Source of the DNA: Strigamia acuminata | Lineage: Eukaryota | DNA: 64,000 nucleotides | Assembly: GCA_949358305.1 (NCBI GenBank) | Contig: OX442314.1 | Span: forward strand, 29,264,001-29,328,000 | Reading direction: 5' to 3' | Shown here: in pieces, positions 7,168 to 42,129 of the stretch | How the letters are laid out: every line of letters starts with the position of its first letter | How positions within the stretch are numbered: position 1 is the first letter of the stretch | Notes under the pieces: generated by a model | The model's database searches: none | What the model was told of the DNA's origin: nothing | Seen by the model: the letters and a program-made list of their open reading frames with translations, nothing else | Translations under genes and position numbers: made by a program

Positions 7168-7458
7168 TTATTTTTGTGGAGCACGCTCAACACAAAGATC
7201 CTCTTTGATTAACAGAGCAACCTCAATGTTAATCCACACAGCAAATGGGGTTGTTCTTGCACGTTGGGCATCGGCCATCACACGGGCGTTGCAATCCTTG
7301 CAAAAATAGGCGTGTGCACAAGGTAACATTAGTGTGGTCCTGTCCTGTAGCAGGCAGACCACACATTTTGATGTTGCCGGCGGAGCAATCACTGGTGCGG
7401 CATCCAACTCATCAACCGCATCTGCCTCATTCACCACATTCGCCGCGGCCGCTAACAC
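7168..7458 (-). pseudogene. C3HC4 RING-finger fragment (IAP/Mdm2/Neuralized-like), apparently frameshifted
   Basis: CVVCLLQDRTTLMLPCAHAYFCKDC; the last Cys pair is missing in frame, but 'PIC' occurs in another frame near 7245. Confidence 0.55.
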
Positions 7459-10714: not shown

Positions 10715-13700
10715 GCTACTGGGGTAAGAACTAATGTAACATGGAGTAAAATAGCTATGCCAACTGGAACATGCTTTCAATCTGACATAGGTACACATCT
10801 AGACATTTTATATAAATTGTACAAGTACATAAAATATTAATGCGAGAATTATCTTGTTGCAGCACCACGGAAATTTGCCGGAACTGCGTCACTAATATTT
10901 TTTAGTCTACAACCAGTGAAAGATCAAATATGTAATCAGCATGAGTACGAAGTAATGTACACCTATGGCCAAAAAAATCTTCACTTGCTCTCACGCTGCT
11001 CCAGCTCTAAATGAGCAGTTCAATTTTCCGCCACCGGCGGCCAGAGCAGTCTACTTTTCCTGGGGGCAACTGCAAGTTTAAATGCAACTAACACTTAGAT
11101 TTTTAGTGAATTTAAAAGCAAATTTACCATGTTTTTGCACATATTTTAACACGTTTTTGCACACATTTTAACACATTTTTGCACACATTTTGTCACGTTT
11201 TGGCACATATTTTACCATGTTTTTTCACACATTTTACCATGTTTTTGCACACATTGTGCCAAGTTTTTGCACACATTTTGCCACGTTTTGGCACACATTT
11301 TACCACGTTTTCGCACACATTTTGCCAAGTTTTTGCAAACATTTTGCCACGTTTTGCACACATTTTGCCACGTTTTGGCACACATTTTGCCAAGTTTTTG
11401 CACACATTTTACCACGTTGTTGCACACATTTTAACACATTTTTGCACACATTTTGTCACGTTTTGGCACATATTTTACCATGTTTTTTCACACATTTTAC
11501 CACGTTTTTGCACACATTGTGCCAAGTTTTTGCACACATTTTGCCACGTTTTAGCACACATTTTGCCAAGTTTTTGCACACATTTTACCACGTTTTTGCA
11601 CACATTTTAACACATTTTTGCACACATTTTGTCACGTTTTGGCACATATTTTACCATGTTTTTTCACACATTTTATCACGTTTTTGCACACATTTTACCA
11701 CGCTTTTGCACACATTTTGCCACGTTTTGGCACACGTTTTGTCAAGTTTTTGCACACATTGTGCCAAGTTTTTGCACAAATTTTGCCACGGATTTGCACA
11801 CATTTTGGCACACATTGTGCCAAGTTTTGCTACATTTTAATACGTTTTCGCACAAAAATGGTGTTTTTCAACAAAAGTAATGTTTTCAACAGAACAAAAA
11901 TATGTTTTTTTTAGGCCAAAATGGTGTTTTTTAATCAAAAATTGTATTTTTATTTGCTGAAAATAGTGTTTTTGAATTTTAAATTGTTTTTTGCCCAAAA
12001 AGTGTTTTTTTTGCTCAAAAAGTGTTTTTTTTTGCCCGAAAAATGTATTTTTACACCAAAAATATCAAAGATACATGTTATTTTTTTTTACTTCTGATCC
12101 AGTGCCCAATTTTCATAATAAAAGTTAATTTCATTGGCATTTTCTGAAGAAATACTAAAAAACTCATCATGTATTTATATGTATGGCTAGAATTTTTTTT
12201 AGATGTTTTTATATATTTTGCAAGCTTAATTCTCCATTCTTTAGGAAATATTTCATGTTGTTCTCTCACCCCTCCATCCAGAAGTCCAGTTAATCGATTT
12301 TGCTGTTCTACACTTAATTTTGGTGCCATTTTTTGCAAAACAAAGTGTTTAATTCTTTTCCTTTAACCATGTTAGGAGTATGCAAATTTTGTGTGAAGTC
12401 AAGAAAATAAAATACAACAAAAGTTATGATTTATTTTTTATTATATATTCAAAAATTTAATTTACAATAACCTGGTCCTGTTTAAGTGGATTTGGAATGA
12501 TATTTATTTAATGTTCACATCAAACTGTATAGAAGAAGAAATTCATCATAAAAACAAATAATAAACCTGAAAATCTAGTAATAGTTTTATTTTATTGAAA
12601 GAAGCAAATTCTAAAATAAATTTTTTAATTTGAAAAGTTTGTTATTATTTGAAATCACAACTTTTCTTAGGAAACAAAAAAAACGTGGTAAAATGTCGGC
12701 AAAAACTTGGTAAAATGTGTGCAAAAACGTGATAAAATGTGTGCAAAAACTAGGCACAATGTGTGCCAAAACGTGATAAAATGTCTGCAAAAACGTGGTA
12801 AAATGCATGCAAAAACTTGGCAAAATGTGTGCAAATACGTGTTAAAATGTTGCAAAACTTTGGCAAAACGTGTGCCAAAACTTTGCAAAATGTGCGCCAA
12901 AACGTGGCAAAATGTGTGCAAAAACTTGGCATAATGTGTGCCAAAACGTGACAAAATGTGTGCAAAAACATGTTAAAATATGTGCAAAAACTTGGCAAAA
13001 TGTGCGCCAAAACGTGGCAAAATGTGTGCAAAAACTTGGCATAATGTGTGCCAAAACGTGACAAAATGTGTGCAAAAACATGTTAAAATATGTGCAAAAA
13101 CTTGGCAAAATGTGTGCAAAAACGTGTTAAAATGTGGCAAAACTTTGGCAAAACGTGTGCCAAAACGTGGCAAAATGTGTGCAAAAGCGTGGTAAAATGT
13201 GTGCAAAAACGTGTTAAAATATGTGCAAAAACATGGTAAATTTGCTTTTAAATTCACTAAAAATCTAAGTGTTAGTTGCATTTAAACTTGCAGTTGCCCC
13301 CAGGAAAAGTAGACTGCTCTGGCCGCCGGTGGCAGAAAATTGAACTGCTCATTTAGAGCTGTAGCAGTGTGAGAGCAAGTGAAGATTTTTTTGGCCATAG
13401 GTGTACAACTCCTTGCCTAATAAATGGAATATTGGTCAAAATAAAGTTCATGTCATGACCAATTTTCATACAATTTTTAAAAGATAACAAAATAAAGGAA
13501 TGAATCATGGTGTTAAGATATGATTCTACATTCGACCATTATTTAGCTATAATTCAGTTAAAAGAGAACTGGAAAATGTTGTTGCAATTTTAAGTAATCC
13601 GTACGGTAAAAATGACAATATATGTAGGCAAGTGAAGCGCAAAACGGTGCGAATAACACCGGTGGAAGCGTGTATTTAGCACGGAAGGCGCCGTCTCGAC

Positions 13701-16700
13701 CCGAGACGAACGTAACACGGACGTTTTGCCGTGAAAAACAAGTGCGCGTGGCCTAATGCCACTTATCTGCGCAAAAACTATAAACTAAGCACTTATAAAC
13801 GTGCTAGGTTAACTGGCAATGAGTTAAAACAATAAAATATAATGTTTAATCGAAATAATGCTTACATGTAATGTTCCTATTCATTTGAAATGGTTGGAAA
13901 ACATCCTCGCACCTGTGTGCGGCCATCTTGGGTGAGAATAACAAACGATAACACCATCTGGTGTTAGAATTGGGCAATATAAAAAGGAAAATATTACAAG
14001 ATGCATGATGCCACATGCATTTGATGGAAAACTAACAGCAAGGTGCTTAATGCACTTAAATATAACACAATCACGTACAATTGTACGGAATACAACTTGG
14101 AACATATCCAAAATAAGAAATACATTGAAAAGAGTCAATAAAAAGTAAATAACATAATGAATACTGAATAATCATTGATAACATCGACTCAAATAATAAT
14201 TTGTGATCCGTACCGAATCATATGACCAACAAATCCCCCCATGATTCGATACTGATCTGGGAAACTGGATAAACAACTGAAAAAGTAACACGAGAATTAT
14301 GGTGTACCGATGTGTGAAAACCAAAAATAATAAATCGAATCATCGTGCCGGGTACTGTAACACAATCACAATAAAGCCCGAAAATTCCCACAGAACACGA
14401 CGATCCTCGAAGTCGGTAGAATAATTTAAGAATGTCTTAGTCGGTTAAAGTTGAAAAATCCCTCCAATCAGTTTGTTAAGACGGTCGGACGACAGCCATT
14501 TGGTAAAAATGTCTGCAATGTTGACGTCGCCGGGAATTTTTCAAAGTTGAAATCGCTTGGCCACATACCACTCCCTCAACCAATGGTACCTCACGCGAAT
14601 GTGCTTAGTCTTGCTATTCTCGACATCGTTCGACGTGAATTGAATCGATGCGAGAGCGTCGGAGTATACGATTGGCGATGATAAACGATTAAGAAATGGG
14701 AGTTGATGGAATACATGATCGAGCCAGTATAGTTCTTTCACGCATTCCACGAGGGCGATGAATTCAGCCTCCATCGTGGAACACGCTACTGACGATTGCT
14801 TTTTACAGCTCCATCCGATGGGTATGTTGCCAATAAAGGTAATGAAACCGCCGAAACTCAGAGATGTTGCGGTGTCGGAGGCCCACGAAGCGTCGGTACA
14901 TGCCCAAAGTTGGCTCGAGTTGCATCCGGAAAGTTCGATCATGTAGTCGGCCGTATTTGCTACGTATCTCAAAACTTGAAGTAATGCCCGAATATGTGAT
15001 TCATCGTAGCAGTTGTTGTATTGGGACAAAGCGATGATCGAATACAAAATGTCCGGACGTGTTCTTGAAGCCAAAAAGAGTAATGATCCGATTAGCGAGC
15101 GGTATGGAAAATCTGGTAAATTTTCCTTCGATCCTTTCACGAGCGTCGTTCCTACTGTGACCGGAACTTTGATCATCCGATCCGGTGTGATATCGAACTT
15201 CTTGAGAATTTTTGCAATATATGCACGCTGTGAAATGAAAGTTCGGCCCGCGGATCTAATAAACTCTACGCCGAGCAACTTCGAAATGGGTCCGAGATTG
15301 ACGATTTGAAATTTCGTTGAGATCAATTGAATAAGGTGCGTTAAGACGTTGTCGGTTGCGTAGAATAAAACTATATCGTCCACGTAGACTAGCATAATAG
15401 CCGATTTCCCGAATACGTAAACGCAGTTGCACGCCGGTAATTTGCGGAAACCGAGTGCACGAAGAGTCTCATCAAGCTTTTCATACCATTGTCGGCCTAA
15501 TTGGTGAAGGCCGTACAATGACTTGATCAATAACCAGACGTTGTTCGGGTTCGAGCAAGTAGCGCCGGCTGGAATTCGCATGTAGACGCGATGTTCGAGG
15601 TCCCCGTATAGGTATGCGCACTTTACATCCAAGTGCGCATCCTTCCATCCGAGTAGAGAGACGAGGAGACAAAAGAAGAATCGAATCAATACAAAATTAA
15701 CGACGGGACTGAAGACTTCATCGTAGTCCACTCCAAGCGTCTGGCGAAAGCCTTGTGCGACAAGTCGGGCTCGATAACGAGAAATCTTCCCGGTAGTGTC
15801 GGTCTTTAGCTTGAATATCCATTTGCATCCGAGAATCGTAGTGTCGGGCGGTCGTGGTACTTCCTGATAAACCTCACGTTCTTTAAACGTTCCCAACTCC
15901 TCGTCTATGGCTTCACGCCATTTCGGTGCATCGTGGAATTTTGGAATTTCGGCGAAAGATGCGGGTTCCGTTCGACAGAAATGAGCCACATGTCTGGCAG
16001 GGATCGTAGGCGTAGTATATTCAATACTGCCAAAGAAAAAGAGTTCCGGATTATATTCGAGATGATTAAATTGACAATATTTCTCGATGTCCCCGCGTGA
16101 ACGTAGTCGCACATCCGGTTCCGGGAAATAATATACATCGGTGTCAATCTTTCCGGGTCTCTGATCCTTGCGGAGATGTTCTTCACGTCTCCAACGTGCG
16201 CAATGCGAATCTCCCCCGACATATCTCCATATGTGAGCGGTCCTGTGTGCAGATGTAGGTGCTACTTCAGTCCCTTCAGTTCCTTGGAGGGGAGCTGGGG
16301 ACATAGGGGCAGCATCGAAGACCGGTATCGTATGTTGGAGAACGGAGGTACCCGCTCTTCTTCGTGTCGTCACGAATCTGCGTGGAGAACCAGGTTGAGA
16401 CACTGGGGGTGATGTTTGAGGTGAAGTTTGTGGTGACATGTGAGGAGAAGTGTAGTTAGACATTGGCACGAGAGAAACTTCATCGATATCATCAATGTCC
16501 CGATCCGTGTCATCACCTAGATTGCTGTCGGAACTCGGCAATCTCAAAGCACACGCTTCTTGAAATTGACGTTCCGGTGTCTGGAATTGTGCAGATGCAG
16601 CCGAACTCGAACTCTCTTCTAGAGGAGGCATGTCAGATTCTTCATCTGACGACGAGCTGCCATCTTCCGAATCTGCTGTTTTCGACCAGCGGACATATGT

Positions 16701-19700
16701 GATGTTATCGTCGAAATTGACATGAGGTCCAGATTGGTTAGGTGGACGTTGGGGCGACTCGAAAGATGTTCGGTTCCCGTTGCGCAATGATTTGCGGTAA
16801 GTAATTCGTTCGTCGATCTTTACGTGTATGGATTCGACGACTTTATTATCAACGGGATTCCAAATACGATAACCACGAGTACCAGTGGCGTATCCGACCA
16901 AATATCCCTCCCATGCACGTGCTTCGAACTTATTCCTGCCCGGTGCAGTGTAATGCACCCAGCATTTGGATCCGAGTTTACGAAGGTGACGGAGAGACAA
17001 TGCACGTTGACGCCAAAGAATATACGGTACTTCGTTCTTAAGACGGGAATGAGGCGATCGATTTTTGAGATATGCGAAAGTCACTGCGAATTCGGCCCAA
17101 AGTTCATCCGGAAGGCGGGTTTCCTCAAGAGTTGCACGAACATTATCGATCATCGTGCGGTTAATGCGCTCTGCCGTTCCGTTCATCTGAGGGCTCGATG
17201 GATTAGTCCGTTGACCTTCAATTCCCTTATCTTTGAGGTATCGGAGGAACTCGTTTGACATAAATTCCCCCCCTCGGTCGGAACGAATAGCTTTGATGCG
17301 TGTGCCGGCGACGTTTTCGATCCGAGCGACAAAGTCTTTAAACACACCAAAAACCTGTGACTTTTGGGCCATCGGGATGATCCAAGAATAGCGGGTCGCA
17401 TCATCGATAACAGTAAGAACGTAGCGTGCACCGCCAAAAGAAGTCATAGGCGCCGGTCCCCACACGTCCATATGGAGCAGATCCAACGCCGTTGTTGAAA
17501 CAGGATGTGGATCGGGTTTATGAGACGCACGAATAGATTTGGCGATACGACAATGGTTGCAAGCCAACTCTTTGGAGACTTCTCCGGATTCGACGCCATA
17601 AACTTGTTCGTTGGCAGCCAAAAGGCGCATTGCAGCCGTGTGTAAATGTCCAAGACGGCTATGCCAAATGCCCGTCGCATCCTGCTTGGACGTAGGAGCG
17701 GCCACCTTCTTCGGATTTGACGGCGAAGAGGTGTTCGGAGGGGAAGTCGAGGAGATTGACTTGAGGGCATTGGTATAGGACTGGAGAGGAGGAACGGCTG
17801 CGGGAGGAAGTGATGTAGAAGGAGGTAAAGGAGGTGAAGTCGACTGCGGTGCAGGAATGGCATCAGGAATGGGCGGAATTGGGGTCGGCGGAGGTGAGTT
17901 CGCAACGTCGAATCGAAAATCCGTAATGTGTCGAGGTTGAGACTTCTTCTTCGACTTCGGGATTTTGACAAAATCTTCCTCGACGGTAACCATTGTTCGT
18001 ACCGGAGGGGTTTGTGAGGAAGTCGGCGGCGGAACAGTCGAAACAGTCGTAGAAATCGTCGCAGAAGAACATAAGCCATCGACATAGTAAAGTCCACCCT
18101 TTTCCTTAGCACGTAGCACCGGACAACGAGCGTCTGTCTGATATATGTTGACTTCTCCTTTAAAAATATGAATATGATGTTCGTTTTTATCGATCTTCGA
18201 AACGGAGATAAGGTTGGCCTCGAAGTTTGGAGCAAAAAGGACATCTCGAAGGTTAACGATGCACTCGCATCCATCGATGAGCGTTTGAATGCGAACCGTG
18301 CCTTTGCCGGTGACCTGAGAATGGCCCTGTCCGAGTTCGATGTCGAAAGGCACAACTGTCACAAAGTCGACAAACCACGACTGCACGTGTGAAACGTGGT
18401 CGGTTGCCCCGCAGTCTACAATCCATTCATGGCCTTGCATGAAATGCACCGTCGGAGATTGAACCAGATGCGGAGGGGCGTTCACGAAAAAGTTCGATTC
18501 TCTTCGGACTTGAGAATTGCCTCGTGGTTTACCGTCTGCCGGTTTCGAAGCGGTGTTCTTGTTGCGGCGTCGGCTCTTACTTCGCGACGGACGTTGCAGA
18601 GATACAGCCGGAAGTGGTTGGCGATTGTCCTGTCGCGGTTTAGGGCACTTATTAGCGTAGTGTCCTTTTTCGCCGCAATTAAAGCATGTCACGGATTCAA
18701 TTGGACGGGGTGTTCGGTTTCGATTACGACCACGGTCCGATGCGTAGGCAGATGAGTTACCGGAAGTATCACGTGAAGAATATGTCTTAAGACGCATATA
18801 CTTCGAAAGGAGCTGATCCGAGACGATGTTAGGTTTGAATTTGTCGTCATCCCAGTGGTAAATGGCGAAGGAAACTTGAGAATATTCGGGAGGTAACATG
18901 TCCAAATATTGATAAGCTTGGTGGTCGGGTGAAACTATTTCTCCGATGTCGGTGAGTTTGCGGACGTGGTAGTCCACCCGGCCAAGGAAATCAGCCATTT
19001 CTTCGTTTTTGTCGATATGAAGATTGAGGAATTCTCGTCGAAGAGCGGCTTTGCGCGCGCGGGAACTGGGCGCGTAGATTTTGGCTAATGCGTCCCAGCC
19101 TTCCTTCGGGGTTTTGACAGAATCGAGGGCTGATTTCTTCGCTTCACTCAAATGAATGTAAAGCAGACCCAAAGCTTTATCCTTTTTTCTTTGAAATTTG
19201 AGTTTCTCCTTTTCGGTGGCCGTAACAAGAAAGTCTTTTTCATTTTCTTCGGTGATGTGGTGCCAAAGCCCCTCAGCTTTGAGGAGCATTCGCATCGATC
19301 GCGACCACATCTCGTAGTTGCCGATGGCGAGTATCGGTACGTGACCACCGGGAGTATTCGAGCCTTTCTGCATCGTGATGAAGACGAAGGCACAAACGCG
19401 GAGATAAACTAGTGTTGGGAGTGGCGATGTCGGCGATAAGCGATAAATCGAAGCACGAAAACCGACGAAATAGCACTAAAACGGCGCACAAAACACGGAT
19501 TCCGTAGCACAAACACGACACGGCACTGTTCCCACGTGGATCGAAGCGGAATACCAAAAATGGGCGACAACTTCTGAAGTTGTCAAATAACCTCCGGTTG
19601 CCAGTCTGAGAGGGTCCGTTCGACTGCCTGGAGCCGCGGGAAACCTCACTTGTACCACGACAAGCACAACCGGAGAATACAACGGCGCTTACTCGGATTC

Positions 19701-22254
19701 GAGTGAAGGGCGCCGAGGATACTAAGTGTCCCACACCAAAATCCCCCTTAAAAACTAACAAAGGTAATACGACTACTGAAAGGGAAGTATTGATTAATTC
19801 GGTGCGGTGAAAAACCGATTGATGTGCGATTATTTGGCCAAATCGCATTTGATCGCCGAAAAAGCGATAAATCGTCGAAAATCGATATAAATCGTCGATA
19901 CTGCCGTGCACCGGGGCACTAAGCAGCGGGAATCGCCCGTTTCTAGTGGTAAACGTCGCGAAGACGTTGTCGTACAAGGAAAATCGGCGAAAAACCTGAA
20001 AAATATGAAATTTGCCGGAAAATTCGCGTAGCCCGCGGAATTTTCGGCAAAATTAAGGAATGAGGCGTCGTAAGAACGTCGAATCAACGTCGCTAAGACG
20101 TTGGCAAGACGAAAATCGGTGGAAAATAGTGACGAAAATCTGAAAATAGATAAATGCTGCAAAAATTCGCGATAAACGCGAAAATTTTGCAGTAAATTAA
20201 CGAAAATTGCACAGTGGATCGTCTCCAGCGCTCTGCTACCACTTGTAGGCAAGTGAAGCGCAAAACGGTGCGAATAACACCGGTGGAAGCGTGTATTTAG
20301 CACGGAAGGCGCCGTCTCGACCCGAGACGAACGTAACACGGACGTTTTGCCGTGAAAAACAAGTGCGCGTGGCCTAATGCCACTTATCTGCGCAAAAACT
20401 ATAAACTAAGCACTTATAAACGTGCTAGGTTAACTGGCAATGAGTTAAAACAATAAAATATAATGTTTAATCGAAATAATGCTTACATGTAATGTTCCTA
20501 TTCATTTGAAATGGTTGGAAAACATCCTCGCACCTGTGTGCGGCCATCTTGGGTGAGAATAACAAACGATAACACCATCTGGTGTTAGAATTGGGCAATA
20601 TAAAAAGGAAAATATTACAAGATGCATGATGCCACATGCATTTGATGGAAAACTAACAGCAAGGTGCTTAATGCACTTAAATATAACACAATCACGTACA
20701 ATTGTACGGAATACAACTTGGAACATATCCAAAATAAGAAATACATTGAAAAGAGTCAATAAAAAGTAAATAACATAATGAATACTGAATAATCATTGAT
20801 AACATCGACTCAAATAATAATTTGTGATCCGTACCGAATCATATGACCAACAATATAAAGATGGAATATTCAATTCAAAAAATCTGGTAGAATAGTAGCT
20901 ACCAATATCTGCAATTCCAGATCTTAATCAAACTGACCACAAGACTAAACAGATCAGTGTGCCAACTTTTCTGGCATCATGTACGATGTCTTGATCAATT
21001 GTCTAATAGTCCTGCAGTACAGATTGGTTAGGGTGACTGTACTTTATAATATTTTTCACCACTGAGAGTATGTGAAAAACGTAACGTAATATACGTTTTA
21101 GGGAAAGTCATAGTTAACGGTAAACTGCTTAGATAAATGGGTTCAATGGTGTAAATAGCCCAGCATTTCTACTGTGGTTATGTTTAGTTACATGTGTTAA
21201 TGTAGAAATTGTTTGTAATTGTAATTTCTTTTGTAGATATACTTTCAACAAAATGATGCTGAAATACCATCAATTCTCAGAAGTAGAAGAAGTGTTGTAG
21301 ATAACACCTTTGTCGTTATTCATTTTAAAATGATTAAAGTAATACATCAGTTTATTACATATACACTTTTCAAACATTTGCTCTATTTTAGACCGTTCGA
21401 TTAAACTTACGAGCACAACCTTGTTTTGACCATGACAAATACAAACAATGCCAGGATGATTGTTACAAAAAAATGATTTATAATTTTGTTCGATGCAAGT
21501 GAGTCATAATTCTTTACAATTGAATGTGAGCATGTTGTTGCTTGGGCCCTCAAAATACAGGAGTTCTAGAGTTAGAAATAAAAATTCTCTACCAGAGTTC
21601 AGGGAGTGCGGACTGCACTGGCTTACACCATCAATCAGGGTGACATCACAATGCAAAATAAGACTGTCGTGTGTCTATCTCAAATTCTATTGTTATTATT
21701 TTAGTCCCTTGTAAATTTAGAATCTAAATTTACAAACATTACTAAAGTTTCTGTATGGGCTGGTACAAGAGGACTCGGAGGAGGTCCATGGGGAAAGTCG
21801 AAGGGGGTGACACCATGAGTTACTGCACCGGGTTGTAATAAGTTTTTATAATTTTAGGCTACCATTTTTGCATAATGCAACAAATAATACCTGTTCAAAT
21901 GCTGAGGAAGCAATTTTTTCATTACAACTATTCATGAAGAATTCCATAAAAGTTGACGTAACGAAAGACTGTGGATGTCATCCTCCTTGCGAAGAACAAA
22001 TATTTGACACTTACGTTTACTTGCAACATCCTAAAGCATTTCCACTCAAAGTTCTTGCTATAAGTCCAATCAATAATATAATTGAACAGATTACTCAAAT
22101 ATTATCCTACACTGCAGTTGCATTGTGTTGCGATATTGGAAATTCTTTTGCACTAATGCTTGGACTTTCAATTCTTGCAATTCCAGAATTATTTCAAAAT
22201 ATAGTAAATCAGTTTATGGTACTCCGGCAGTGGCATAACTGCCGGACGCTGTAA
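10715..22254 (+). CDS. DEG/ENaC (ASIC/pickpocket-family) gene, last 5 exons; paralogue of the second repeat of the 30976-35596 gene
   Basis: Exons 10715-10790, 10863-10951, 21237-21338, 21392-21498, 21858-22254 have GT/AG ends and the same phases and nearly the same sizes as in the paralogue. Motifs: TGTCF, CGCHPPCEE, TM2 DIGNSFALMLGLSILAIPE. The 5' exons were not found in the window. Confidence 0.85.
10960..13403 (-). mobile_element. Tc1/mariner-type non-autonomous element with foldback-like long inverted arms made of ~22-bp tandem repeats
   Basis: TA|CACCTATGGCCAAAA...TTTTGGCCATAGGTG|TA. About 165 bp of unique TIR, then inverted arrays (11125-11860 and 12680-13240). Central possible transposase N-terminal remnant MAPKLSVEQQNRLTGLLDGG. 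Confidence 0.8.
14541..19373 (-). CDS. Copia Gag-Pol (knuckle, PR, GAG-pre-integrase, IN, MBD, RT, RNase H); in-frame TGA just before ADIFTK
   Basis: CFNCGEKGHYANKC; WIVDCGATDH; WHSRLGH; LLHMDVWGP, SDRGGEF and ERINR; YVDDI; TDASWA. Reading continues KIPGDVNIADIFTK after the stop. Confidence 0.95.
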   Translation of the reverse strand: MQKGSNTPGGHVPILAIGNYEMWSRSMRMLLKAEGLWHHITEENEKDFLVTATEKEKLKFQRKKDKALGLLYIHLSEAKKSALDSVKTPKEGWDALAKIYAPSSRARKAALRREFLNLHIDKNEEMADFLGRVDYHVRKLTDIGEIVSPDHQAYQYLDMLPPEYSQVSFAIYHWDDDKFKPNIVSDQLLSKYMRLKTYSSRDTSGNSSAYASDRGRNRNRTPRPIESVTCFNCGEKGHYANKCPKPRQDNRQPLPAVSLQRPSRSKSRRRNKNTASKPADGKPRGNSQVRRESNFFVNAPPHLVQSPTVHFMQGHEWIVDCGATDHVSHVQSWFVDFVTVVPFDIELGQGHSQVTGKGTVRIQTLIDGCECIVNLRDVLFAPNFEANLISVSKIDKNEHHIHIFKGEVNIYQTDARCPVLRAKEKGGLYYVDGLCSSATISTTVSTVPPPTSSQTPPVRTMVTVEEDFVKIPKSKKKSQPRHITDFRFDVANSPPPTPIPPIPDAIPAPQSTSPPLPPSTSLPPAAVPPLQSYTNALKSISSTSPPNTSSPSNPKKVAAPTSKQDATGIWHSRLGHLHTAAMRLLAANEQVYGVESGEVSKELACNHCRIAKSIRASHKPDPHPVSTTALDLLHMDVWGPAPMTSFGGARYVLTVIDDATRYSWIIPMAQKSQVFGVFKDFVARIENVAGTRIKAIRSDRGGEFMSNEFLRYLKDKGIEGQRTNPSSPQMNGTAERINRTMIDNVRATLEETRLPDELWAEFAVTFAYLKNRSPHSRLKNEVPYILWRQRALSLRHLRKLGSKCWVHYTAPGRNKFEARAWEGYLVGYATGTRGYRIWNPVDNKVVESIHVKIDERITYRKSLRNGNRTSFESPQRPPNQSGPHVNFDDNITYVRWSKTADSEDGSSSSDEESDMPPLEESSSSAASAQFQTPERQFQEACALRLPSSDSNLGDDTDRDIDDIDEVSLVPMSNYTSPHMSPQTSPQTSPPVSQPGSPRRFVTTRRRAGTSVLQHTIPVFDAAPMSPAPLQGTEGTEVAPTSAHRTAHIWRYVGGDSHCARWRREEHLRKDQRPGKIDTDVYYFPEPDVRLRSRGDIEKYCQFNHLEYNPELFFFGSIEYTTPTIPARHVAHFCRTEPASFAEIPKFHDAPKWREAIDEELGTFKEREVYQEVPRPPDTTILGCKWIFKLKTDTTGKISRYRARLVAQGFRQTLGVDYDEVFSPVVNFVLIRFFFCLLVSLLGWKDAHLDVKCAYLYGDLEHRVYMRIPAGATCSNPNNVWLLIKSLYGLHQLGRQWYEKLDETLRALGFRKLPACNCVYVFGKSAIMLVYVDDIVLFYATDNVLTHLIQLISTKFQIVNLGPISKLLGVEFIRSAGRTFISQRAYIAKILKKFDITPDRMIKVPVTVGTTLVKGSKENLPDFPYRSLIGSLLFLASRTRPDILYSIIALSQYNNCYDESHIRALLQVLRYVANTADYMIELSGCNSSQLWACTDASWASDTATSLSFGGFITFIGNIPIGWSCKKQSSVACSTMEAEFIALVECVKELYWLDHVFHQLPFLNRLSSPIVYSDALASIQFTSNDVENSKTKHIRVRYHWLREWYVAKRFQL
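16029..16200 (-). other. Methyl-CpG-binding domain (MBD) between integrase and RT
   Basis: WRREEHLRKDQRPGKIDTDVYYFPEPDVRLRSRGDIEKY...PELFFF matches the MBD pattern W.R....RK......DVYY..P....RS......Y...F.F. Confidence 0.88.
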
Positions 22255-24964: not shown

Positions 24965-25917
24965 GCGCGATGGTAGGGCGGGAACGTCTTCTCGAAGGCG
25001 GAAATTAGCTGCGGCTAATTTACGCTAGAATGGCTTGCCTTGCACTTACTGTACAAAGAAAGCTGGTGAGTCTCGAATCTGATTACGGTACCCTATCAAT
25101 ACTTTTGGCAGAGCAAGAAGCAGTGATGTTGGGTGTTTGTATTTCAGATCAAGAGTCCCGTTTGAAGCTAGGGCGTGAACCCGGCATGCTTCGAAATTGC
25201 GCAGATAACCTGCGCAATTAGTTAAAACTGGTGCAACAAGGGATTATTGCACCATAAAGGCTAATTGCCGCTTTCACCTCGGACAACCTGGGGTGATATG
25301 TGCCTAGGGAAGTTTCCTCCCCTTGGTCACATGATCTGACTTGGCGTGTGCCAAGTCAAATTAATTAGAAGTTAAAATAAATTCACCTTCTAAGTGGTGA
25401 AACAGTTTGAGATCACCACATTTTTATCAACCAAATTGCAATCGAGATGCCGTTTATAGGCCTTAAACTCAGTTGCCTGTAAAAATTGTCTAGGGGTGAT
25501 TTTTATGAAATAAGAACTCAAGTTTGGTTGAATAAAAATAATACAAATGAACTTTATTCGGTGAATTTACAATTTGATTTATACGAAATATAATAAATGA
25601 GAATTAATTAAGGAATTAATGACTATAATTAGAGATTAATAAACGAGAAAGGTTTGAAATGTGAGCTACAATGCTCACAAAAGACAAAGAAAAGCACTAA
25701 CAACAACAGTCAGTTGTTGAGCGCAAAAATTGGCGAGTCGGACTCGCCTAGAAAAAATTGCTCTCGTTCGTACGATGGCAAGAACTGCAAGCTCCGGAGG
25801 GACTCCGCGGCGGTTTGCAGACGCTGGCGATGGTTCGCGGCGAGAGGTTTGCTTGTGGGGACGACAGTGTGCCCGGACAAGTCACGGAGCACACAATAAT
25901 CGACAGCTAGAGGGTAA

Positions 25918-30975: not shown

Positions 30976-33900
30976 ATGCCTGCTCCTAAAGCTTTGCGCA
31001 TTCGCCGGATCCGTATCCGTACTCGCCAATTTGTGCAACAAGAATTGCAAACTTCCCTGTCGGGCAAAGATAGTTTGCGATTTATAAACAAAGTTCTCGA
31101 GAACACTGGAATAGTTCGTGCAGTTTGGTTGGTTGGTTGGTTGGTTTGTTTCGCCATTTGCGGTTATCAAACTTGGGAAAGATTTCGCTTCTACATGTCT
31201 GGACCCTTCAAAGTTGAAATTGATTTTGTTCTAATACAAGAAAGTAGATTTGCTGAAATTAGACTCATGGCGCTTGATACTCCTCTGGTGTCGGAGTACT
31301 GGGACAAAATACCAGAAGATAATTTACTTGATGATGTAAAAGAGAGAATGAGAGCTTGCAGGATCCCAGTGAGAGGAATCATTTTGAAGAAAGTCAAAGT
31401 TAAAAATTACACACACTTGTGGGAACATTCCAACATTTCAGAAAATATGCAGCACTTTAAGGTCAGACAGGTAAGTAACCTTGGATAAATAAAAGAGCTA
31501 TATTAAAAGATTTTGTTGCCAATAATTTGTCAATAACTATTTTTTCAGGGCAAAACTATATTACTTGAGACCAAGATGAGAAGTGGCAATTACACAAACC
31601 AGGAGACAACAGTCGAATTAAAATACAAGAATTCTGTTTTCGGCAGTACACTGATTATGAAAACAGGTAAAATTAATATAATCATATTTTCCATTTATAT
31701 AATCTTTTTGGCCGTATTATTATTATTATTTTTTTTTAAAGATTTACAACAGGCTTCAAAGAGAAAATTGCATATCCTTTTTAAAAAAAATGGAACCTGT
31801 GACTTACCAATGGTTGCAGTCAGTTCACTTTGTCAAATTGGGGATCCGTAATACGTGCAACATTTTTACGCGCGAAAATACCAATCACATCTAAGAATGG
31901 TGTTGCATAGTGCATATATTCGTACGTGCGACGCGTACAAATCACGTAGGCATCCGTGTGCTCCCTCAGTTCGCTCTTGAGGAAACTCTGGATAAAATTC
32001 GTCACATTAACCGTAATATTTTTAGCCAATCATTCCGGTCGTAATCGTTCATAAACTCGACCAACGTGATGAGCAAGTGGGCGATCCCGTTCTCGCTCTT
32101 GTTGCAATCACCCGAGTCGGCAGACATCATGCATGTGCATACATATAAAAGTCGCCGTCGTGCCTATGAATGCTTACAATGTGAACATGTGCGATGTTGC
32201 GCATGTAGATACTTACAAAACTTAACGTCGCACGAATGCATGCAAACAGTATGCATAATCGCGACGTTGTGCGTAAGAATATCACGTATATTATAGAGGC
32301 CCGTCAAATTGATTTTCCTTCAAGGGGATGGCAAATTTCGTTCAATCCTGTTCGTAAAAAATGTTCACACTAACCTGATTTAGCATGGCTAACCGAATAT
32401 ACCATGAACAGTTTATGCGACTGGGATTGTACAATTGCGGTCATAAAAATTGTTCATTGCACTTCCACCGTTTAATACTAGGTGTCTCTGAAGGATGGTG
32501 TCATGCCCTATCGATACACTTTGCCCGTGCAGATGGGAATTGAAGCTGAATTTCAATTTATTTTGCGTAAAGTGAGTTAATTGCTTGTCTGTTTAGTTCT
32601 AGCAATTTATTCAATGATGCAGCAAGATTACAGATATCTTGTGACAGTTATTAATTTGTATTGCAAATGGATACATTTAACAAAAATAGTGATATTGTAT
32701 TTCTTTTCTGCAAGTATCAATTTTTGCCTTCAAGAAAGCCCTACTGTGAGCCAAGCCTGATAAAGCAAACCCAATGTTATGAAGACTGTGTGACAAAACA
32801 AACTCTAAAAAAACATCCACAATGCAGGTCTGTAAACTTAGTTCACTGAAACAATTGATAATGCTGATAGATTGTTAACTTAGGTTGCCTTATATGGCTG
32901 ACAAAAATCTGCCAGACTGCAGTTTAGAAGCAAACAAGTCAATTGTGTTTAAAGTGTATGACGACTCCTACCAACCCGAAACATTCATGCTGGCAACAAT
33001 TGAATGTGGTTGCCTAAGACCTTGTCAAACGAGTGTTTATATCCTAATAGTGCGGACTGATACTAGTTAAGTCAAACAATTTCATATTTGCGCATAATTA
33101 TAACAAAATTAATCATCTTCATTGTTAGATTTTGAAGATGAACCCAGTAGTAAAGATTTAGTAAGTTTTAATCTTAAAGTAATGGAAGAAACATTTGTCA
33201 GAATGACAGAAATCTACATTTACAAAATGCCTGATTTGATGATCGATTTTGCCGGTAATCTAGGATTTTCTTTGGGATTTTCTCTTCTCTCTATAATCGA
33301 AATTGTACAGTTTGTTTCGCTTTTGTGCTACAATAAGTATATTAGACCTGTTCGACTACAAGCTCACATAAAAACAAAAGTCATTAATCAAATCAGAATG
33401 GCAAATTTGAAGAAAAAGGCAAAGGAAACTTTGCCTCAAACCTCGCCCATGCTACAGCGCACGTTGTTTTTCATTCTCATTTTTATTTGCGTCTCCTTAG
33501 CAGTTTATGTGAGCAAAGAAAGAATTACATTATATCTGAGTGAACCGACAAGATATGTGGTAAATATTCAAGAAAATGACACATTATATATGCCCAACGT
33601 TATTGCATGTATGGACGGACCCTTAACGACACGCTACAGGAACCGATATGCCAACATTACAGGCATTCCAGAATGCAAAATTCACTTTGTTGATTTAATG
33701 AATACAACTGTCAATGGGAAAAAGCCATCAATGGAAGATGTATGGCGCTATCAAACACCTTTAATGGATACGTCTACCTTGGAGGCTGCTGCAAGTGTAA
33801 GTGTTTGGTCCGATGTCCAAAAGTGTCAAAGAACAATAATCGTCATCCGTGGGATGGGATGACATTAAATCCTGGTTCTTAACTTTTGTAGCAGTTGGCA

Positions 33901-35596
33901 CTCCTTGACTTTTTCAATCTCTGCTCACAGCTTACCAAAAGAAAATATTTTTGAACTAAGTTTTTACTGGTGTTACTGAACCACTTATGAAATAGCGTTG
34001 CAACTCCAGGTGGTACATGCACCATCAGTTAAGAAACGCTGCATTGTATACTTGTAGGTTATAGGCAGGAAATGGGTCAAAGAGCATAAAAAAACAATTT
34101 CTACCATCCAAATCCCAATGGGTCAAAAACTGTGGCAGTGATTGAATACGCAGTAGCTCGGATTTGCGTTGGGTCAAAAGGCATTTGATAAACCTATTTT
34201 ATACCTGTTAGGTAAACTGTGCGAGTGCTAGGTCAAACTCGCTCTTTCTACCAAATTCAATCGTATACAGGAAAATTGTGCATAAAATGTATTTTCTTAA
34301 CAGAACCTAGGAATAAAAGCAAACGTATCTTGGAGCACAATAGCTATGCACACAGGAACATGCTATCAATCTCAAATAGGTGATTAAAAATTTGTACAAA
34401 AATTATATTTGTATAACAATTATAATGACATTATTTTCTTAGAACCACTAATATATGCAGGAGTTGGTTCAGCAATATTTTTTAGTTTTCGACCAAACTT
34501 TCGTCAAATCTGTAAGCAGAATGAGTACGAGGTAATGAAAAAATTCCATTTTTCATCAACTATTAAATTTTGCACGGTACTCGAATAAATACACAAGATG
34601 CACAATACTTATCCATTGGGCGGACAAAAGTCGACGTCAAGAGTCTTAGTAATTAATCGTTTTGAGAAGTTACTAAAGACATTTGCAGTAAGCACAGAGA
34701 TGAAATGTACCTACACATGCTTGTATTTTTGTTAACTGTAGGGTTGTTTGTTCAGAACTAACTTCATGCTAAATATCAAGAATACGATAACTGTAGTTTT
34801 CTTTTTGTAGGTGTACTTTAAACAAAGCGAAGCGACGATTCCATCAATTCCCTCAATACTCAGAAGCAGAAGAAGTATTAAAAGAGACACATTTACCATT
34901 CTCACATTCAAAATGTTTAAAGTATGTTTGTAGATTATTATATAAACAAAACTGCTAAATTGATTGTTTTAATTTAGACCCTTCGATTAAATCTGAAATC
35001 TCAACCTTGCCTTGACCATGACAAATACATAAGATGCCAAGATGATTGCTACGAAAAAAAGATTTATAATATACTCCAGTGCAAGTGAGCATTTCTTTTT
35101 CTTTTAGGGAGTTACTGTTGTAAAAATCTGTGTTTTGGACAGATGAAATTTTTAAACCTTACATTAAAGGTTTTATGATGTAATTTGTAATACATTTTAT
35201 TTAAATTTTTTTAGGTTACCATTTTTGGTCAACATCAATAAGAATAATTGCACCAACCTTCAAGACACTAAAACTTCATTGGCATTGTTCATGAACCGTT
35301 CATTATCTACCAATATAATGATAGACTGCGTTTGCCATCCACCTTGTGAAGAGCAAGTGTTTGACACATTTGTTTTCTTTCAAGACACACAAGCATGGCC
35401 ATTCGAACTTCTTTCTATAATTCCAATGAACAACATAATTGAAGAGATTAAGCAAATATTATCCTACACTGAAGTTGCATTGTGCTGTGACATTGGAAAT
35501 TGTTTTTCACTAATGCTTGGCCTTTCAATTCTTGCAATTCCACAGCTATCACAAAAAATATTTTTGCAATTTATGCGGCTAACCAGAAAAAACTGA
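30976..35596 (+). CDS. Two-repeat (4-TM) DEG/ENaC-family channel, 12 exons, 833 aa
   Basis: Exons 30976-31470, 31549-31666, 31742-31812, 32482-32571, 32715-32827, 32884-33065, 33129-33796, 34304-34379, 34443-34531, 34811-34921, 34978-35084, 35215-35596. All GT-AG, 2502 nt, open frame. Two sets of TM1, Cys-rich ectodomain and TM2 (GxS). Confidence 0.85.
31841..32302. mobile_element. Mutator-like MITE in DEG/ENaC intron 3
   Basis: 9-bp TSD GTCAAATTG; imperfect TIRs GGG...CCC; a related fragment lies at ~7505-7690. Confidence 0.75.
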
Positions 35597-35830: not shown

Positions 35831-38419
35831 TAATGTGTTCCTTGGTTTGATATTGTTGATTACAAAGTGGGTTATTACGGAGTCGTGAATAAAGCAGCCA
35901 TCTTGGTTAGTAGAATTAACATAAGACATTTATTTGCATGTTTTTACACAGGTGGCGCTGACAGTTGACCAGCGTCACAAATTGACATATTGAAAGATGG
36001 AGTGCGGACACTCCAGTACCCCCTTAATTGGGATCCAAAAGGGAGCAATTTTACAAAATGAAATATTAAAACATTGAATTTAAATGTAAATAAGGAATAA
36101 AATAACATACAATTACAAAGTTGAATTGGCTCATTAATTTGATGGGAAACCATAAAATTCCGTCGGGGACTGCTTACGGAATTCGGAGGCGGTCCAGGCG
36201 GTGACACAGGAGCAACAGGCGGCTGAGAAGGCAGCGGTGGTGTTGACGGTTTTGCAGGTGAGGTTGCAGTCCGAGTTGCGGTTACAGGTTGAGCAAGTGT
36301 CGGGGAAGCAACTGCACTCTGAGGGCTCACAAACGGACCAATGTGCCAATCATCCCCCTTAATTGGAAGTGGCGTTCCAATTGATAAGTCGTGTTGCAGT
36401 TGGTCGGTGTGTCGTGACCAAATGACGGCGGAAGTCTTGCGCAACGAACGAAATGAAACCAAGAATTGGTCCACGGAATCTGCCAAAGAGAGTTGAGATT
36501 TGGTTAATTTCTCCATTTCGTCATGGAAAAAGTTGCGGTGCTGCAACAATAACGTGTGGAACGGGTCGAGCGCGTCAGTGCTTGCCAAGCAGTCTGTGGA
36601 AGCCAGCGCCGTCGCTGCAGCGGCAACAATCACGTTTGGAGTAGACTCGTTCGGCGGGGAAGCTTCTACATCCAGTCTAGGGACGGTGAATTTAGCAGTC
36701 GTGTTTGTTGGAGGTTGAGTGCGCTTTCGAGCAGCGCGTCTTCGTGCAGACTTTGAAGTGGTCATGGCGGTCGAATTCACAACAGCACCCATCGAAATAC
36801 CAGCTGGGGACAACAAATTGAAGGTGTCCAACCAATTTCGACCCATGACTGGCACTGACCCAGTCGCAGCAACACAGAGCGGTAGGACGTATTTGCGGCG
36901 ATCGTGCTGCACCGGCACATGGCAAACCCCGTCCATCGGGAGGACGTGTCCGTCGTAAGTGGACATCTGCGAATCGAGCGGCTGCAACTGAAATCGAGAA
37001 AAATTACGATTATACATCTCGCGACTGATGGTTGTCGCTTCAGCGCCCGTGTCGATCTACATGAGCAGCAATGTGTCCGCTACTCGCATTTCCCGAACCA
37101 ACGGTTTGGTCGGTTTGATGCTGATCGAATTTATCGCTTTTCCAGCCTGTCGAGGTGTTGTTCGTATCGAGTAGAAAGTGAGCTTCCGAGGCGCAGCAAT
37201 TACAGCATGGTGGGAAGCAGTTGTAGCGGTTGACATGCAGGCCGATTGTGTGTGCCCTACGAGGCCACAGCCCTGGCACTTGGTGCGACAATGTTCGCAA
37301 TCGTCTCTGCGGTGTCCAGTCTGTCCGCACGATCTGCATTTTCCGTCGACATGACGTGGCTGGTGCCCAGTGCCGTTGCACAATTTGCACTTGGTGTTGT
37401 CGTGCTGTTGTAATGGTTGGTCTTGTTGTTGATCGGTGGTGCCCCTCGAGGAGCGTTTGCCACCTTCGTGCGAGTTCGCATTGGATCGTGAGAAGTTTCC
37501 GCCGTTCTGAAGTTGGTGCACCGACTGCTGGGTGTCGAGAAAACTGGAAACGTCCGCTCCGGCGATCTCGGCGGAGGTGGCTGCCTCGAGAGCCAATGCA
37601 AAAGTAAGATCTTTTTGCGTATAGAGCGTCTCTTGGACGTGACGCATGTTAAGACCAATGACGAACTGGTTCCGCATCTCGTCGTCTTGCGAATCACCAA
37701 AGTCGCAATATTTCGTCAGCGAGTGCAAAGCGGACGCAAAATCGCTCACCGACTCGCCCTTATTGCGTTTACGAGCACGAAAGCGCACAATTTCACCCTG
37801 CTTGACCGGCTTTGGCTTTTGATTTTTCACCATTAAGTCGGTTAGTTGCTTGAATGTCAACTCCGTCGGCTTTTTAGGTCGGGCCAGATCCACAAATTTG
37901 GCAAAAGTTGCCATTCCCACGCAGGCCAAAAGCGTATTTACTTTTTCTGCGTCCGCGACGATTTTGTTGCATGAGAAGACGCATTCCATCTGGAGGATGT
38001 AGGTTTCCCAATCGTCGAGCGGGTTGTATTTTTCCGGAGCCGCAACCAAAGGCATATTTGAACGATGGAATTGATGAATTCAAGGCAAAACTTACAGGTG
38101 AAAATTCGGGCCTAACGGTCAACGCGTGGTCACGAGCGTACGGTCAGTGGCGAAAATCTCATCAAAACGACAAGAAAACACACAAAAGTTCAATAGTAGT
38201 TGATGGTTCGATTATACTCATCCCTCGTCGCCAATAATGTGTTCTTTGGTTTGATATTGTTGATTACAAAGTGGGTTATTACGGAGTCGTGAATAAAGCA
38301 GCCATCTTGGTTAGTAGAATTAACATAAGACATTTATTTGCATGTTTTTACACAGGTGGCGCTGACAGTTGACCAGCGTCACAAATTGACATATTGAAAG
38401 ATGGAGTGCGGACACTCCA
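35831..38419 (-). mobile_element. Mini LTR element B (Mag-like), Gag-protease plus Pol scars
   Basis: 185-bp LTRs at 35831-36015 and 38235-38419 (1 difference seen); TSD AACTC; PBS TGGCGACGAGG; PPT-like AAGGGGG; termini TG...TA on the coding strand. Confidence 0.92.
35944..38055 (-). pseudogene. Element B gag-protease with in-frame TAG at 37057-37059
   Basis: Gag with CCHC knuckles, then LLM*IDTGAEATTIS...VMGRNWL in the same frame. Confidence 0.85.
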
Positions 38420-41900: not shown

Positions 41901-42129
41901 TAGTCAAGTAACGACTGCATCAGTTAAAAGTGAAGGAAGTGTAGAAACAGCTACTACACCAAGGATGACGCCTGACAACGCACCTTGTCATAACTGCGGT
42001 GCATTAGGACATTGGGCAAGACAGTGCCCACAACCAAAAAAGCAGTCTGCACCAAAAATGGACATTGAAAAGTTGGTGGACGCCCTCACTGAAGCCGTGC
42101 AAAAAAACTTGCGAGCGCGGGACCAGTAA
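38925..42129 (+). CDS. gag: Gypsy-2 Gag; main ORF ends at 41813, zinc-knuckle tail in the +1 frame (41782-42129)
   Basis: FDGTW...ILTGGAAKWF...WNEF is homologous to Gypsy-1 Gag; CHNCGALGHWARQC is in ORF 41788-42129. Confidence 0.85.

What the first reader, a model, noticed from the sequence alone, without database searches (positions are those of the whole stretch)
30976..35596. Natural two-subunit concatemer of a DEG/ENaC channel
Seen: one exon (33129-33796) reads without stop or intron from a TM2 (YKMPDLMIDFAGNLGFSLGFSLLSIIE, ~33233-33328) through a ~43-aa basic linker into a new TM1 and post-TM1 motif (RTLFFILIFICVSLAVYVSKERITLYLSEPT...MPNVIAC). Each half has its own Cys-rich ectodomain and GxS filter. 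The intron phases 0-1-0-0-2 recur in both halves, so this does not look like a gene-prediction merge. Known: DEG/ENaC/ASIC subunits have 2 TMs and assemble as trimers. Inference: an old tandem duplication-fusion made a 4-TM protein that cannot form a simple homotrimer. It may fix a 2+1 heterotrimer with a separate subunit, or cross-link trimers.
Basis: partly seen in the sequence, partly recalled or inferred. Interest (0 to 1): 0.88.

Follow-up and report, generated by a model that had tools for sequence, protein, structure and literature searches.

The report
Centipede double-subunit sodium channel gene
This gene, likely from a centipede, has a reading frame that joins two different sodium-channel (DEG/ENaC) subunits head to tail inside one exon, a design shared with about twenty predicted Strigamia centipede proteins; the double subunit likely fills two of the three places in one channel, but no transcript or current has been shown.

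Summary
Observation confirmed. Exon 33129-33796 is open from TM2 of one DEG/ENaC unit (A) through a 43-residue basic linker into TM1 of a second (B). My 12-exon, 835-aa model has all GT-AG introns; four of five shared introns fall in the same alignment column and phase in both halves. The gene is not a one-off: 22 of 42 database hits carry the same TM2-linker-TM1 junction, and all 19 of those I looked up are Strigamia maritima gene models. A halves group with A halves and B with B, so the fusion predates the family's expansion. Sister copies in three DNA runs show only frame-keeping indels in this exon. The closest solved channels are the single-unit centipede homotrimers BRTNaC1 and PDPNaC1. 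B halves have a distinct pore helix. A separate Strigamia clade appears to have three units per chain. Most likely A and B are neighbours in one trimeric pore, completed by a third subunit (inferred). Weak points: no RNA evidence, near-neutral substitutions among close copies, assembly untested.

The parts
30976..35596 (+). Two-unit DEG/ENaC gene, 12 coding exons, predicted 835 aa, 4 TM
   Evidence: spliced model without internal stops, all 11 introns GT-AG
30976..31470 (+). Exon 1: N-terminus, TM1 of unit A (about 31108-31170), start of ectodomain; no HG motif, no FPxxTxC
31549..31666 (+). Exon 2 (phase 0-1); GxC cysteine replaced (FGST)
31742..31818 (+). Exon 3 (phase 1-0), best candidate, not proven
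32482..32571 (+). Exon 4 (phase 0-0)
32715..32827 (+). Exon 5 (phase 0-2), thumb cysteines of A
32884..33065 (+). Exon 6 (phase 2-1), thumb cysteines of A; followed by the intron that B lacks
33129..33796 (+). Exon 7, the junction exon: TM2 of A, linker, TM1 and first ectodomain part of B
33233..33328 (+). TM2 of unit A (Ile at degenerin site, GxS = GFS)
33332..33460 (+). 43-aa basic linker, predicted cytosolic (11 K/R, 1 D/E)
   Evidence: in-frame indels in sister copies
33461..33523 (+). TM1 of unit B, followed by YLSEP and MPNVIAC
34304..34379 (+). Exon 8 (phase 0-1), holds GTC
34443..34531 (+). Exon 9 (phase 1-0)
34811..34921 (+). Exon 10 (phase 0-0)
   Evidence: best of 15 alternatives by 13.6 bits; conserved in the window's paralogue
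34978..35084 (+). Exon 11 (phase 0-2), thumb cysteines of B
35215..35596 (+). Exon 12: thumb of B, TM2 of B (about 35477-35548; G-N in place of G-G, Ser four before GLS), stop
10715..22254 (+). Paralogue: five exons matching exons 8-12 (10715-10790, 10863-10951, 21237-21338, 21392-21498, 21858-22254), 60% identical, open; its 5' part was not found in the window

Best explanation
The gene's reading frame joins two different DEG/ENaC units (A then B) through a short basic linker inside one exon, and the predicted four-helix chain likely supplies two neighbouring subunits of one trimeric cation channel that a separate single-unit subunit would complete. Shown: the open junction, the duplicated exon pattern, the recurrence in Strigamia gene models, the age of the fusion relative to the family's expansion, and a different pore helix in A and B. 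Inferred: read-through translation, cytosolic position of the linker, A and B sharing one pore, and the identity of the third subunit (candidates: single-unit paralogues such as T1JAY0 or T1IGW0, or a one-unit exon-skipping product of the same gene). The fusion would fix two of three subunits and their order, giving an asymmetric pore. A sensory role (protons, heat, chemicals) is a guess from the closest characterised relatives.
For: Junction in one exon, open far beyond chance. No acceptor in the linker scores above 1.6 against 6.3-13.8 for model sites, and no poly(A) signal there. Same junction in 22 of 42 hits, gaps 36-70 aa, all basic; 19 of 19 looked up are S. maritima; the closest, T1ITA9, is 63% identical across it. 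A and B labels each need 2 changes on a 37-row tree against shuffled means of 8.2 and 11.0; one clade for all A or all B is not rejected, a within-gene pair is (p 0.017). dN/dS 0.34 (0.23-0.50) over 251 codons of half B against the window's paralogue. Sister copies in runs X1-X3: deletions of 3, 9 and 3 nt in the linker and one compensated +1/-1 pair, no frame-breaking indel listed in exon 7; single contigs join TM2 to TM1 across an unlike linker. AlphaFold models of two relatives, pTM 0.63 and 0.62; in the one I searched, each half superposes on a whole DEG/ENaC subunit (ranges 46-382 and 423-784; best Z 21.2, rmsd 4.9, 325 residues, BRTNaC1). Pore helix: second Gly of GG is Gly in 16 of 16 A halves read (19 held) but Asn/Ser in 6 of 7 B halves; five of six chains with both helices carry exactly one Ser four residues before GxS, none two; that site sets selectivity in PDPNaC1 (PMC12714832). 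Linkers of 8 and 19 residues added between subunits give working engineered ASIC concatemers. Single-unit S. maritima paralogues exist. All solved relatives are listed as multiples of three chains per entry or described as trimers.
Against: No transcript evidence of any kind was obtained. Among the 40 best-supported differences in exon 7 (of 180), 13 are synonymous, 27 not, 0 stops, close to the neutral expectation of 29/68/3%; 5 and 18 among the coding rows. One sister copy shows a 1-nt deletion in exon 2 in runs X2 and X3 (9 further indel rows were not shown). Half A of this copy lacks FPxxTxC and the GxC cysteine and has Ala for the first Gly of GG where nearly all sister depth reads Gly, so this copy may be drifting. 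I could not see model coordinates, so the A-B angle is unknown; pTM 0.62-0.63 is only modestly above my rough ceiling of about 0.45-0.5 for two unplaced halves. The S. maritima proteins are automatic gene models whose exons I could not inspect, and some may be pieces of one gene. Tree support is modest (A group 65, nine-row B group 94 SH-aLRT, long branches). A weak donor (score 6.7) lies in the linker after 33379. Engineered ASIC1a dimers pass current without an added partner.
Confidence: 0.45

Rival explanations
1. The AB chain is made whole and assembles with itself: three chains would give two linked pores (A2B plus AB2, or A3 plus B3), or two chains would give one trimer with a fourth unit left outside that can cross-link channels.
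For: Engineered two-unit ASIC1a chains gave currents alone (PMC4529235). Among the hits, junction-bearing Strigamia models (19 named) far outnumber named single-unit ones (T1JAY0, T1IGW0). The 43-aa linker is predicted flexible (pLDDT under 50) and could reach a neighbouring pore.
Against: The query was the junction itself, so single-unit paralogues are under-sampled. In the ASIC1a work lower-mass by-products were present, so monomers may have completed the channels. The one-Ser-per-chain pattern fits A and B sharing a pore, but is weak.
Confidence: 0.27
2. The gene works as a polyprotein: the basic linker is cut in the cytosol, releasing equal amounts of A and B that assemble as ordinary subunits.
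For: The linker is rich in K/R in every junction (7-17 per gap) and poorly ordered in both models. Engineered concatemers give monomer by-products.
Against: No conserved cleavage motif is visible in alignment A1. Basic residues flanking TM helices on the cytosolic side are expected anyway (positive-inside rule, own knowledge), and furin-type proteases do not reach that side (own knowledge).
Confidence: 0.1
3. This copy is not expressed as a full chain: it is a decaying member of a fast-turnover family, or only one half is made.
For: Near-neutral substitution pattern among close copies; a frameshifted sister copy in exon 2; motif losses in half A; LTR elements close on both sides.
Against: 835 codons open over 12 exons with canonical splice sites; dN/dS 0.34 in half B; both partners of the first ectodomain disulfide are missing together and all eight thumb cysteines are kept; only frame-keeping indels in exon 7; 63% identity to T1ITA9 with a linker gap of 45 versus 46 aa.
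Confidence: 0.1
4. Two AB chains form a four-unit pore (ABAB), as two-pore K+ channels do, departing from the trimer rule.
For: Two units per chain tile a tetramer exactly; one cross-linking study argued for ASIC1a tetramers (PMC4529235).
Against: The nearest solved relatives are trimers (PDPNaC1 homotrimer; BRTNaC1 three chains per entry); a related Strigamia clade appears to have three units per chain, which fits a trimer.
Confidence: 0.08

Closest known systems
[quoted passage not shown]
   Same: Best sequence hits for the family profile (E 1.6e-49 to 6.6e-40, two stretches) and best fold hit (Z 21.2); same compact ectodomain and TM2 pattern.
   Different: 431 aa, one unit, two TM helices, three separate chains per channel; about 20% identity; gating of the window's protein is unknown.
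PDPNaC1, proton-dissociation-gated channel of the same centipede (PDB 9JF7; PMC12714832)
   Same: Profile E 3.7e-34, Z 19.7; also lacks the HG motif; its selectivity residue Gly378 lies four before the GxS, the site that differs between A (Gly) and B (Ser) here.
   Different: 421 aa single-unit homotrimer with a symmetric pore.
Uncharacterised S. maritima UniProt models T1ITA9, T1JD34, T1ITL7, T1IPM9, T1J963, T1IP81, T1JF12 and others
   Same: Same A-linker-B design; T1ITA9 63% identical over the junction exon.
   Different: Unnamed automatic models, many partial; no description found. T1IZL2, T1IU28, T1IL99, T1ITG7 form a separate clade with similar repeated units, apparently three per chain.
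Engineered ASIC concatemers (PMC4529235, PMC10329638)
   Same: Head-to-tail subunits joined by a cytosolic linker; functional in oocytes.
   Different: Artificial; mostly three units; here a natural two-unit chain with very divergent halves.
Heterotrimeric ENaC (alpha/beta/gamma) and internally repeated channels such as K2P, TPC, Nav/Cav (recalled, own knowledge)
   Same: Fixed, asymmetric subunit order; repeat fusion as a route to it.
   Different: ENaC uses three genes; K2P, TPC and Nav repeats divide evenly into a tetramer, whereas two does not divide three.

Membership tests
DEG/ENaC subunit (each half) | Pfam ASC (PF00858) match | tested here: met
   Exon ORFs: 48.7 bits with two stretches in exon 7, 23.9 bits in exon 12, 19.4 bits (under the 23.6 cut-off) in exon 1; complete relatives 111-118 bits. 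The spliced protein itself was not scanned against Pfam.
DEG/ENaC subunit (each half) | Two TM helices flanking a large ectodomain | tested here: met
   Four hydrophobic segments, order TM1-TM2-TM1-TM2
DEG/ENaC subunit (each half) | Cysteine-rich thumb | tested here: met
   Eight aligned cysteines in each half
DEG/ENaC subunit (each half) | GxS in TM2 | tested here: met
   GFS in A, GLS in B
DEG/ENaC subunit (each half) | Post-TM1 FPxxTxC and GxC cysteines (motifs as listed in PMC8438182) | tested here: inconclusive
   B has MPNVIAC and GTC; A of this copy has lost both cysteines (FAEIRLM, FGST), while A halves of most relatives keep them
DEG/ENaC subunit (each half) | Pre-TM1 HG motif (common, not universal) | tested here: not met
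   Absent before either TM1; also absent in functional PDPNaC1 and present in only 43% of insect PPKs, so it does not exclude membership
DEG/ENaC subunit (each half) | Subunit fold | tested here: met
   On the relative T1JD34, not on the window's own protein: each half superposes on whole ASIC/BRTNaC1 chains
Canonical DEG/ENaC protein (whole chain) | One unit, two TM helices per polypeptide | tested here: not met
   Two units in one reading frame; shown at DNA level only
Canonical DEG/ENaC protein (whole chain) | Trimeric assembly round one pore | not testable with these tools
   Needs biochemistry or cryo-EM
Canonical DEG/ENaC protein (whole chain) | Cation conduction, gating stimulus | not testable with these tools
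   Needs electrophysiology
BRTNaC1/PDPNaC1-like centipede branch | Closer to these than to ASIC, ENaC, FaNaC or PPK | tested here: met
   Top hits by profile (E 1e-34 or better against 7e-20 for the next family) and by fold (Z 19.7-21.2 against 14.5); only solved structures were compared, and no tree with them was built
Strigamia A-B tandem family (unnamed) | TM2-basic linker-TM1 junction; B half in the B group; G-N/G-S pore helix in B | tested here: met

The most novel reading that the evidence does not exclude
Geophilomorph centipedes have turned a trimeric channel family into natural concatemers twice: an old A-B two-unit family, expanded to many diverged genes, that hard-wires an asymmetric pore and takes a third subunit, and a younger clade with three units in one chain that is a complete single-chain DEG/ENaC channel. 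This would be the trimeric-channel counterpart of the step from Kv subunits to K2P, TPC and Nav chains.
Probability: 0.5. Interest if true: 0.88.

Novelty: new variant of a known kind. Interest (0 to 1): 0.76.

Why it matters
DEG/ENaC channels are described as trimers of one-unit, two-helix subunits, and subunit order in heteromers has had to be studied with artificial concatemers. A natural, old and expanded two-unit family poses a clear puzzle, since two does not divide three, and it can be tested directly in oocytes and by cryo-EM. The halves differ at pore-lining sites, one of which sets selectivity in the centipede channel PDPNaC1, so the family offers natural asymmetric pores. The nearest relatives are antennal heat and acid sensors, so this may be a large unrecognised sensory-channel repertoire of a blind centipede lineage. 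It also shows that some multi-ASC gene models, easily taken for merged neighbours, can be real.

Tried and rejected
First gene model: exon 10 at 34598-34687 rejected (13.6 bits worse, not conserved in the paralogue); exon 3 at 32384-32439 rejected (poor splice scores, indels in sister copies). First paralogue boundaries were off by 1-2 nt and its dN/dS is void; one search replaces it. Sequencing runs: no RNA holder listed; I first thought X1-X3 might be RNA from their word share, but they cover introns and show no splice joints; X6 covers only the first bin. Word-index protein searches were insensitive: nothing among longer proteins, 3 hits for alignment A1, only T1ITA9 among near lengths. Complex prediction of T1JD34 residues 50-779 with the ectodomain of T1JAY0: 'no answer', score 0.12 against a mark of 0.34, alignments not used; no evidence either way. 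ESM Atlas: single-unit arthropod ASC clusters for T1JD34; for the junction of T1ITL7 one 643-aa arthropod cluster aligned at TM 0.70 over 137 residues, a lead not followed. The first tree (50 of 72 pieces) was distorted by the chimera-like T1IS61; the tree uses 37 pieces, leaving out short fragments, near-duplicates, T1IS61 and the crustacean, insect and snail proteins. An upstream third unit for this gene: no TM1 or TM2 match between 22300 and 30970, though an acceptor-like site precedes the ATG. Earlier scan notes: none on this design.
Full report
1. Is it there? Yes. The window holds a + strand gene from ATG 30976 to TGA 35596. My final model has 12 exons, 835 codons, no internal stop and 11 GT-AG introns of 56-663 nt. 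Exon 7 (33129-33796) runs from the end of one DEG/ENaC unit into the start of the next. Pfam ASC matches its ORF in two stretches (48.7 bits), and also exon 12 (23.9 bits) and, under the cut-off, exon 1. The other two frames of exon 7 hold 18 and 14 stops and 0 of 20000 shuffles stay open that long; the linker alone would be open by chance in about 5%. No AG in 33230-33530 scores above 1.6 as an acceptor, against 6.3-13.8 for the model's own sites, and there is no poly(A) signal; one weak donor (6.7) lies after 33379 (the matrix was trained on the model's sites). Four of the five introns shared by the halves fall in the same alignment column with the same phase; A has a sixth intron that B lacks. 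The halves are 16% identical (58 of 360 columns). Exon 10 was fixed by a family HMM and by the paralogue. Exon 3 is the least certain.

2. Relatives. A full HMMER search with exon 7 gave 42 hits. In 22 of them a TM2 block is followed by a TM1 block 36-70 residues later, always through a basic stretch. I looked up 19 of these 22 and all are Strigamia maritima UniProt models; three were not looked up. The best, T1ITA9, is 63% identical over 216 of 223 residues. I infer that the window comes from a related geophilomorph centipede. T1JD34 (791 aa), T1ITL7 (805 aa) and T1IPM9 (907 aa) have the complete TM1-TM2-TM1-TM2 order and begin about 50 residues before TM1, as the window's gene does. These are automatic models; I could not see their exons, and some may be pieces of one gene. 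What argues against merged neighbours is that the window's junction sits inside one exon and that theirs match it in length and make-up.

3. Age and selection. On a 37-row tree of separated halves the labels A and B each need 2 changes, against shuffled means of 8.2 and 11.0. Holding all A or all B together is not rejected; holding the window's A with its own B is rejected (AU p 0.017). Supports are modest and branches long. So the fusion likely came first and the family then expanded to about 20-25% identity. A paralogue in the window (exons 8-12 only, at 10715-22254) has the same phases, is 60% identical, and gives dN/dS 0.34 (bootstrap 0.23-0.50, 251 codons). Three DNA runs from two studies (one may be the window's source) hold many variant contigs of the gene. 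In exon 7 the listed indels are deletions of 3, 9 and 3 nt in the linker and one compensated +1/-1 pair; single contigs join TM2 to TM1 across an unlike linker. Against: the 40 best-supported of 180 substitutions are 13 synonymous, 27 non-synonymous and 0 stops, close to neutral expectation; one sister copy has a 1-nt deletion in exon 2; the window's half A lacks the FPxxTxC and GxC cysteines together and has Ala for the first Gly of the GG pair where nearly all sister depth reads Gly. The family looks constrained over the long run and fast-moving among close copies; this copy may be drifting. No RNA evidence was obtained.

4. Structure. The spliced window protein was not folded; two complete relatives were. 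AlphaFold2 gave mean pLDDT 68 and 67 and pTM 0.63 and 0.62, with the linker under pLDDT 50. In the T1JD34 model each half separately superposes on a whole DEG/ENaC chain. By my rough arithmetic two unplaced halves would cap pTM near 0.45-0.5, so the halves are probably placed relative to each other, but I could not see coordinates and cannot state the angle. The closest solved channels by profile and fold are the centipede proteins BRTNaC1 and PDPNaC1, both single-unit; PDPNaC1 is described as a homotrimer.

5. The pore helices differ by half. The second Gly of the GG pair is Gly in 16 of 16 A halves that my pattern read (19 held; three not matched) and Asn or Ser in 6 of 7 B halves. Four residues before the GxS, five of the six chains with both helices carry exactly one Ser, usually in B, in T1JD34 in A; none carries two. 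That position corresponds by count to Gly378 of PDPNaC1, where Ser or Gln raised Na+ selectivity (PMC12714832 section 10). This fits A and B lining one pore with a limit on bulk, but the sample is small. HG is absent, as in PDPNaC1.

6. How it most likely works. Translation gives a four-helix chain with both termini and the linker in the cytosol (inferred from family topology). Two units cannot tile a trimer alone. I put 0.45 on A and B being neighbours in one pore completed by a separate single-unit subunit. Candidates exist: T1JAY0 and T1IGW0. Because the intron phases repeat, splicing from an A donor to the matching B acceptor would give in-frame one-unit proteins of 419-433 aa; the model T1IS61 looks like such an A/B chimera, but it may be a misprediction. 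Rivals: self-assembly into two linked pores or a trimer with a spare unit (0.27), linker cleavage (0.10), a decaying or half-expressed copy (0.10), an ABAB tetramer (0.08). About 0.9 in total goes to the fusion being a real, used design at family level.

7. A second clade. T1IZL2 reads TM1-TM2-TM1-TM2-TM1 and T1IU28 reads TM2-TM1-TM2-TM1-TM2; their middle units are near-identical to each other and to T1IL99, so together they outline a three-unit chain. With T1ITG7 their units form their own clade (support 100), a separate and younger repeat, with canonical pore helices. No single model is complete and merges are not excluded. Multi-unit models also came up in a shrimp, a midge, a beetle and a leech; I did not test them.

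8. Is it known? The design is present in public gene models, all 'uncharacterized'. Ten full-text searches found no paper describing natural multi-unit DEG/ENaC proteins; one search was ineffective because its family term matched nothing. What I saw: passages of PMC8438182 (plus the first part of its supplement and a word search of it; it counts 46 insect PPKs with 3-5 predicted TM helices, and I saw no comment on fusion), PMC5203786, PMC7067487, PMC9974506, PMC4529235, PMC9822975, PMC10329638; passages and section 10 of PMC12714832; listing only for PMC12804983. Vizueta et al. 2020, which reports DEG/ENaC candidates in S. maritima, is not held, and the BRTNaC1 structure paper did not appear in the searches; these and unseen supplements could mention two-unit models. 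The comparison with K2P, TPC, Nav and ENaC subunit order is from my own knowledge.

9. Verdict. A real tandem two-unit DEG/ENaC reading frame, one member of an old, expanded and apparently undescribed centipede family. Each half passes the family tests; the whole chain fails 'one unit per polypeptide', so I file it as a new variant of a known kind. Interest 0.76, held back by the lack of transcript, protein and assembly data.

Noticed in passing
window 10715-22254 (+): Paralogous DEG/ENaC gene: five open exons matching exons 8-12, 60% identical; its 5' half was not found in the window and may lie upstream of position 1 beyond LTR elements or be lost.
   Followed up: yes
window 10956-13407: Foldback-like element with 269-nt terminal inverted repeats (95%) and internal 22-nt tandem arrays, inserted a few bases after the donor of the paralogue's second exon.
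   Followed up: partly
window 13626-20853 (-): Copia-type LTR retrotransposon in the same intron; 1644-codon gag-pol frame; two 607-nt LTR stretches identical, so a recent insertion.
   Followed up: partly
window 35831-38419 and 25916-28199 (-): Two short LTR elements (185-nt and 165-nt repeats, 99% alike) flank the gene; the first has a gag/zinc-knuckle ORF and no reverse transcriptase match and starts 235 nt after the gene's stop codon.
   Followed up: partly
window 1-5109 (-) and 38925-46994 (+): Gypsy-type gag and pol frames.
   Followed up: no
window 47989-50436 (+): 816-codon open frame with no Pfam match at E 0.001.
   Followed up: no
window 60840-63122 (+): 761-codon open frame with a weak DNA/RNA non-specific endonuclease match at its end.
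   Followed up: no
window 57253-57657 (+): Exon-like frame matching fructose-1,6-bisphosphatase.
   Followed up: no
window 7171-7554 (-): RING-finger frame among the transposon remnants.
   Followed up: no
P0006, P0008, P0029, P0033 (S. maritima T1IU28, T1IZL2, T1IL99, T1ITG7): Separate clade of repeated DEG/ENaC units that together outline a three-unit chain, which would be a whole channel in one polypeptide.
   Followed up: partly
P0016, P0035 (Halocaridina rubra), P0022 (Polypedilum vanderplanki), P0005 (Callosobruchus chinensis), P0014 (Helobdella robusta): Gene models with two or three TM2 blocks in other animals; may be merged neighbours or independent fusions.
   Followed up: no
window exons 1-5 and 8-12: Repeated intron phases mean that A-to-B exon skipping would give in-frame one-unit proteins of 419-433 aa; S. 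maritima model T1IS61 looks like such a chimera.
   Followed up: partly
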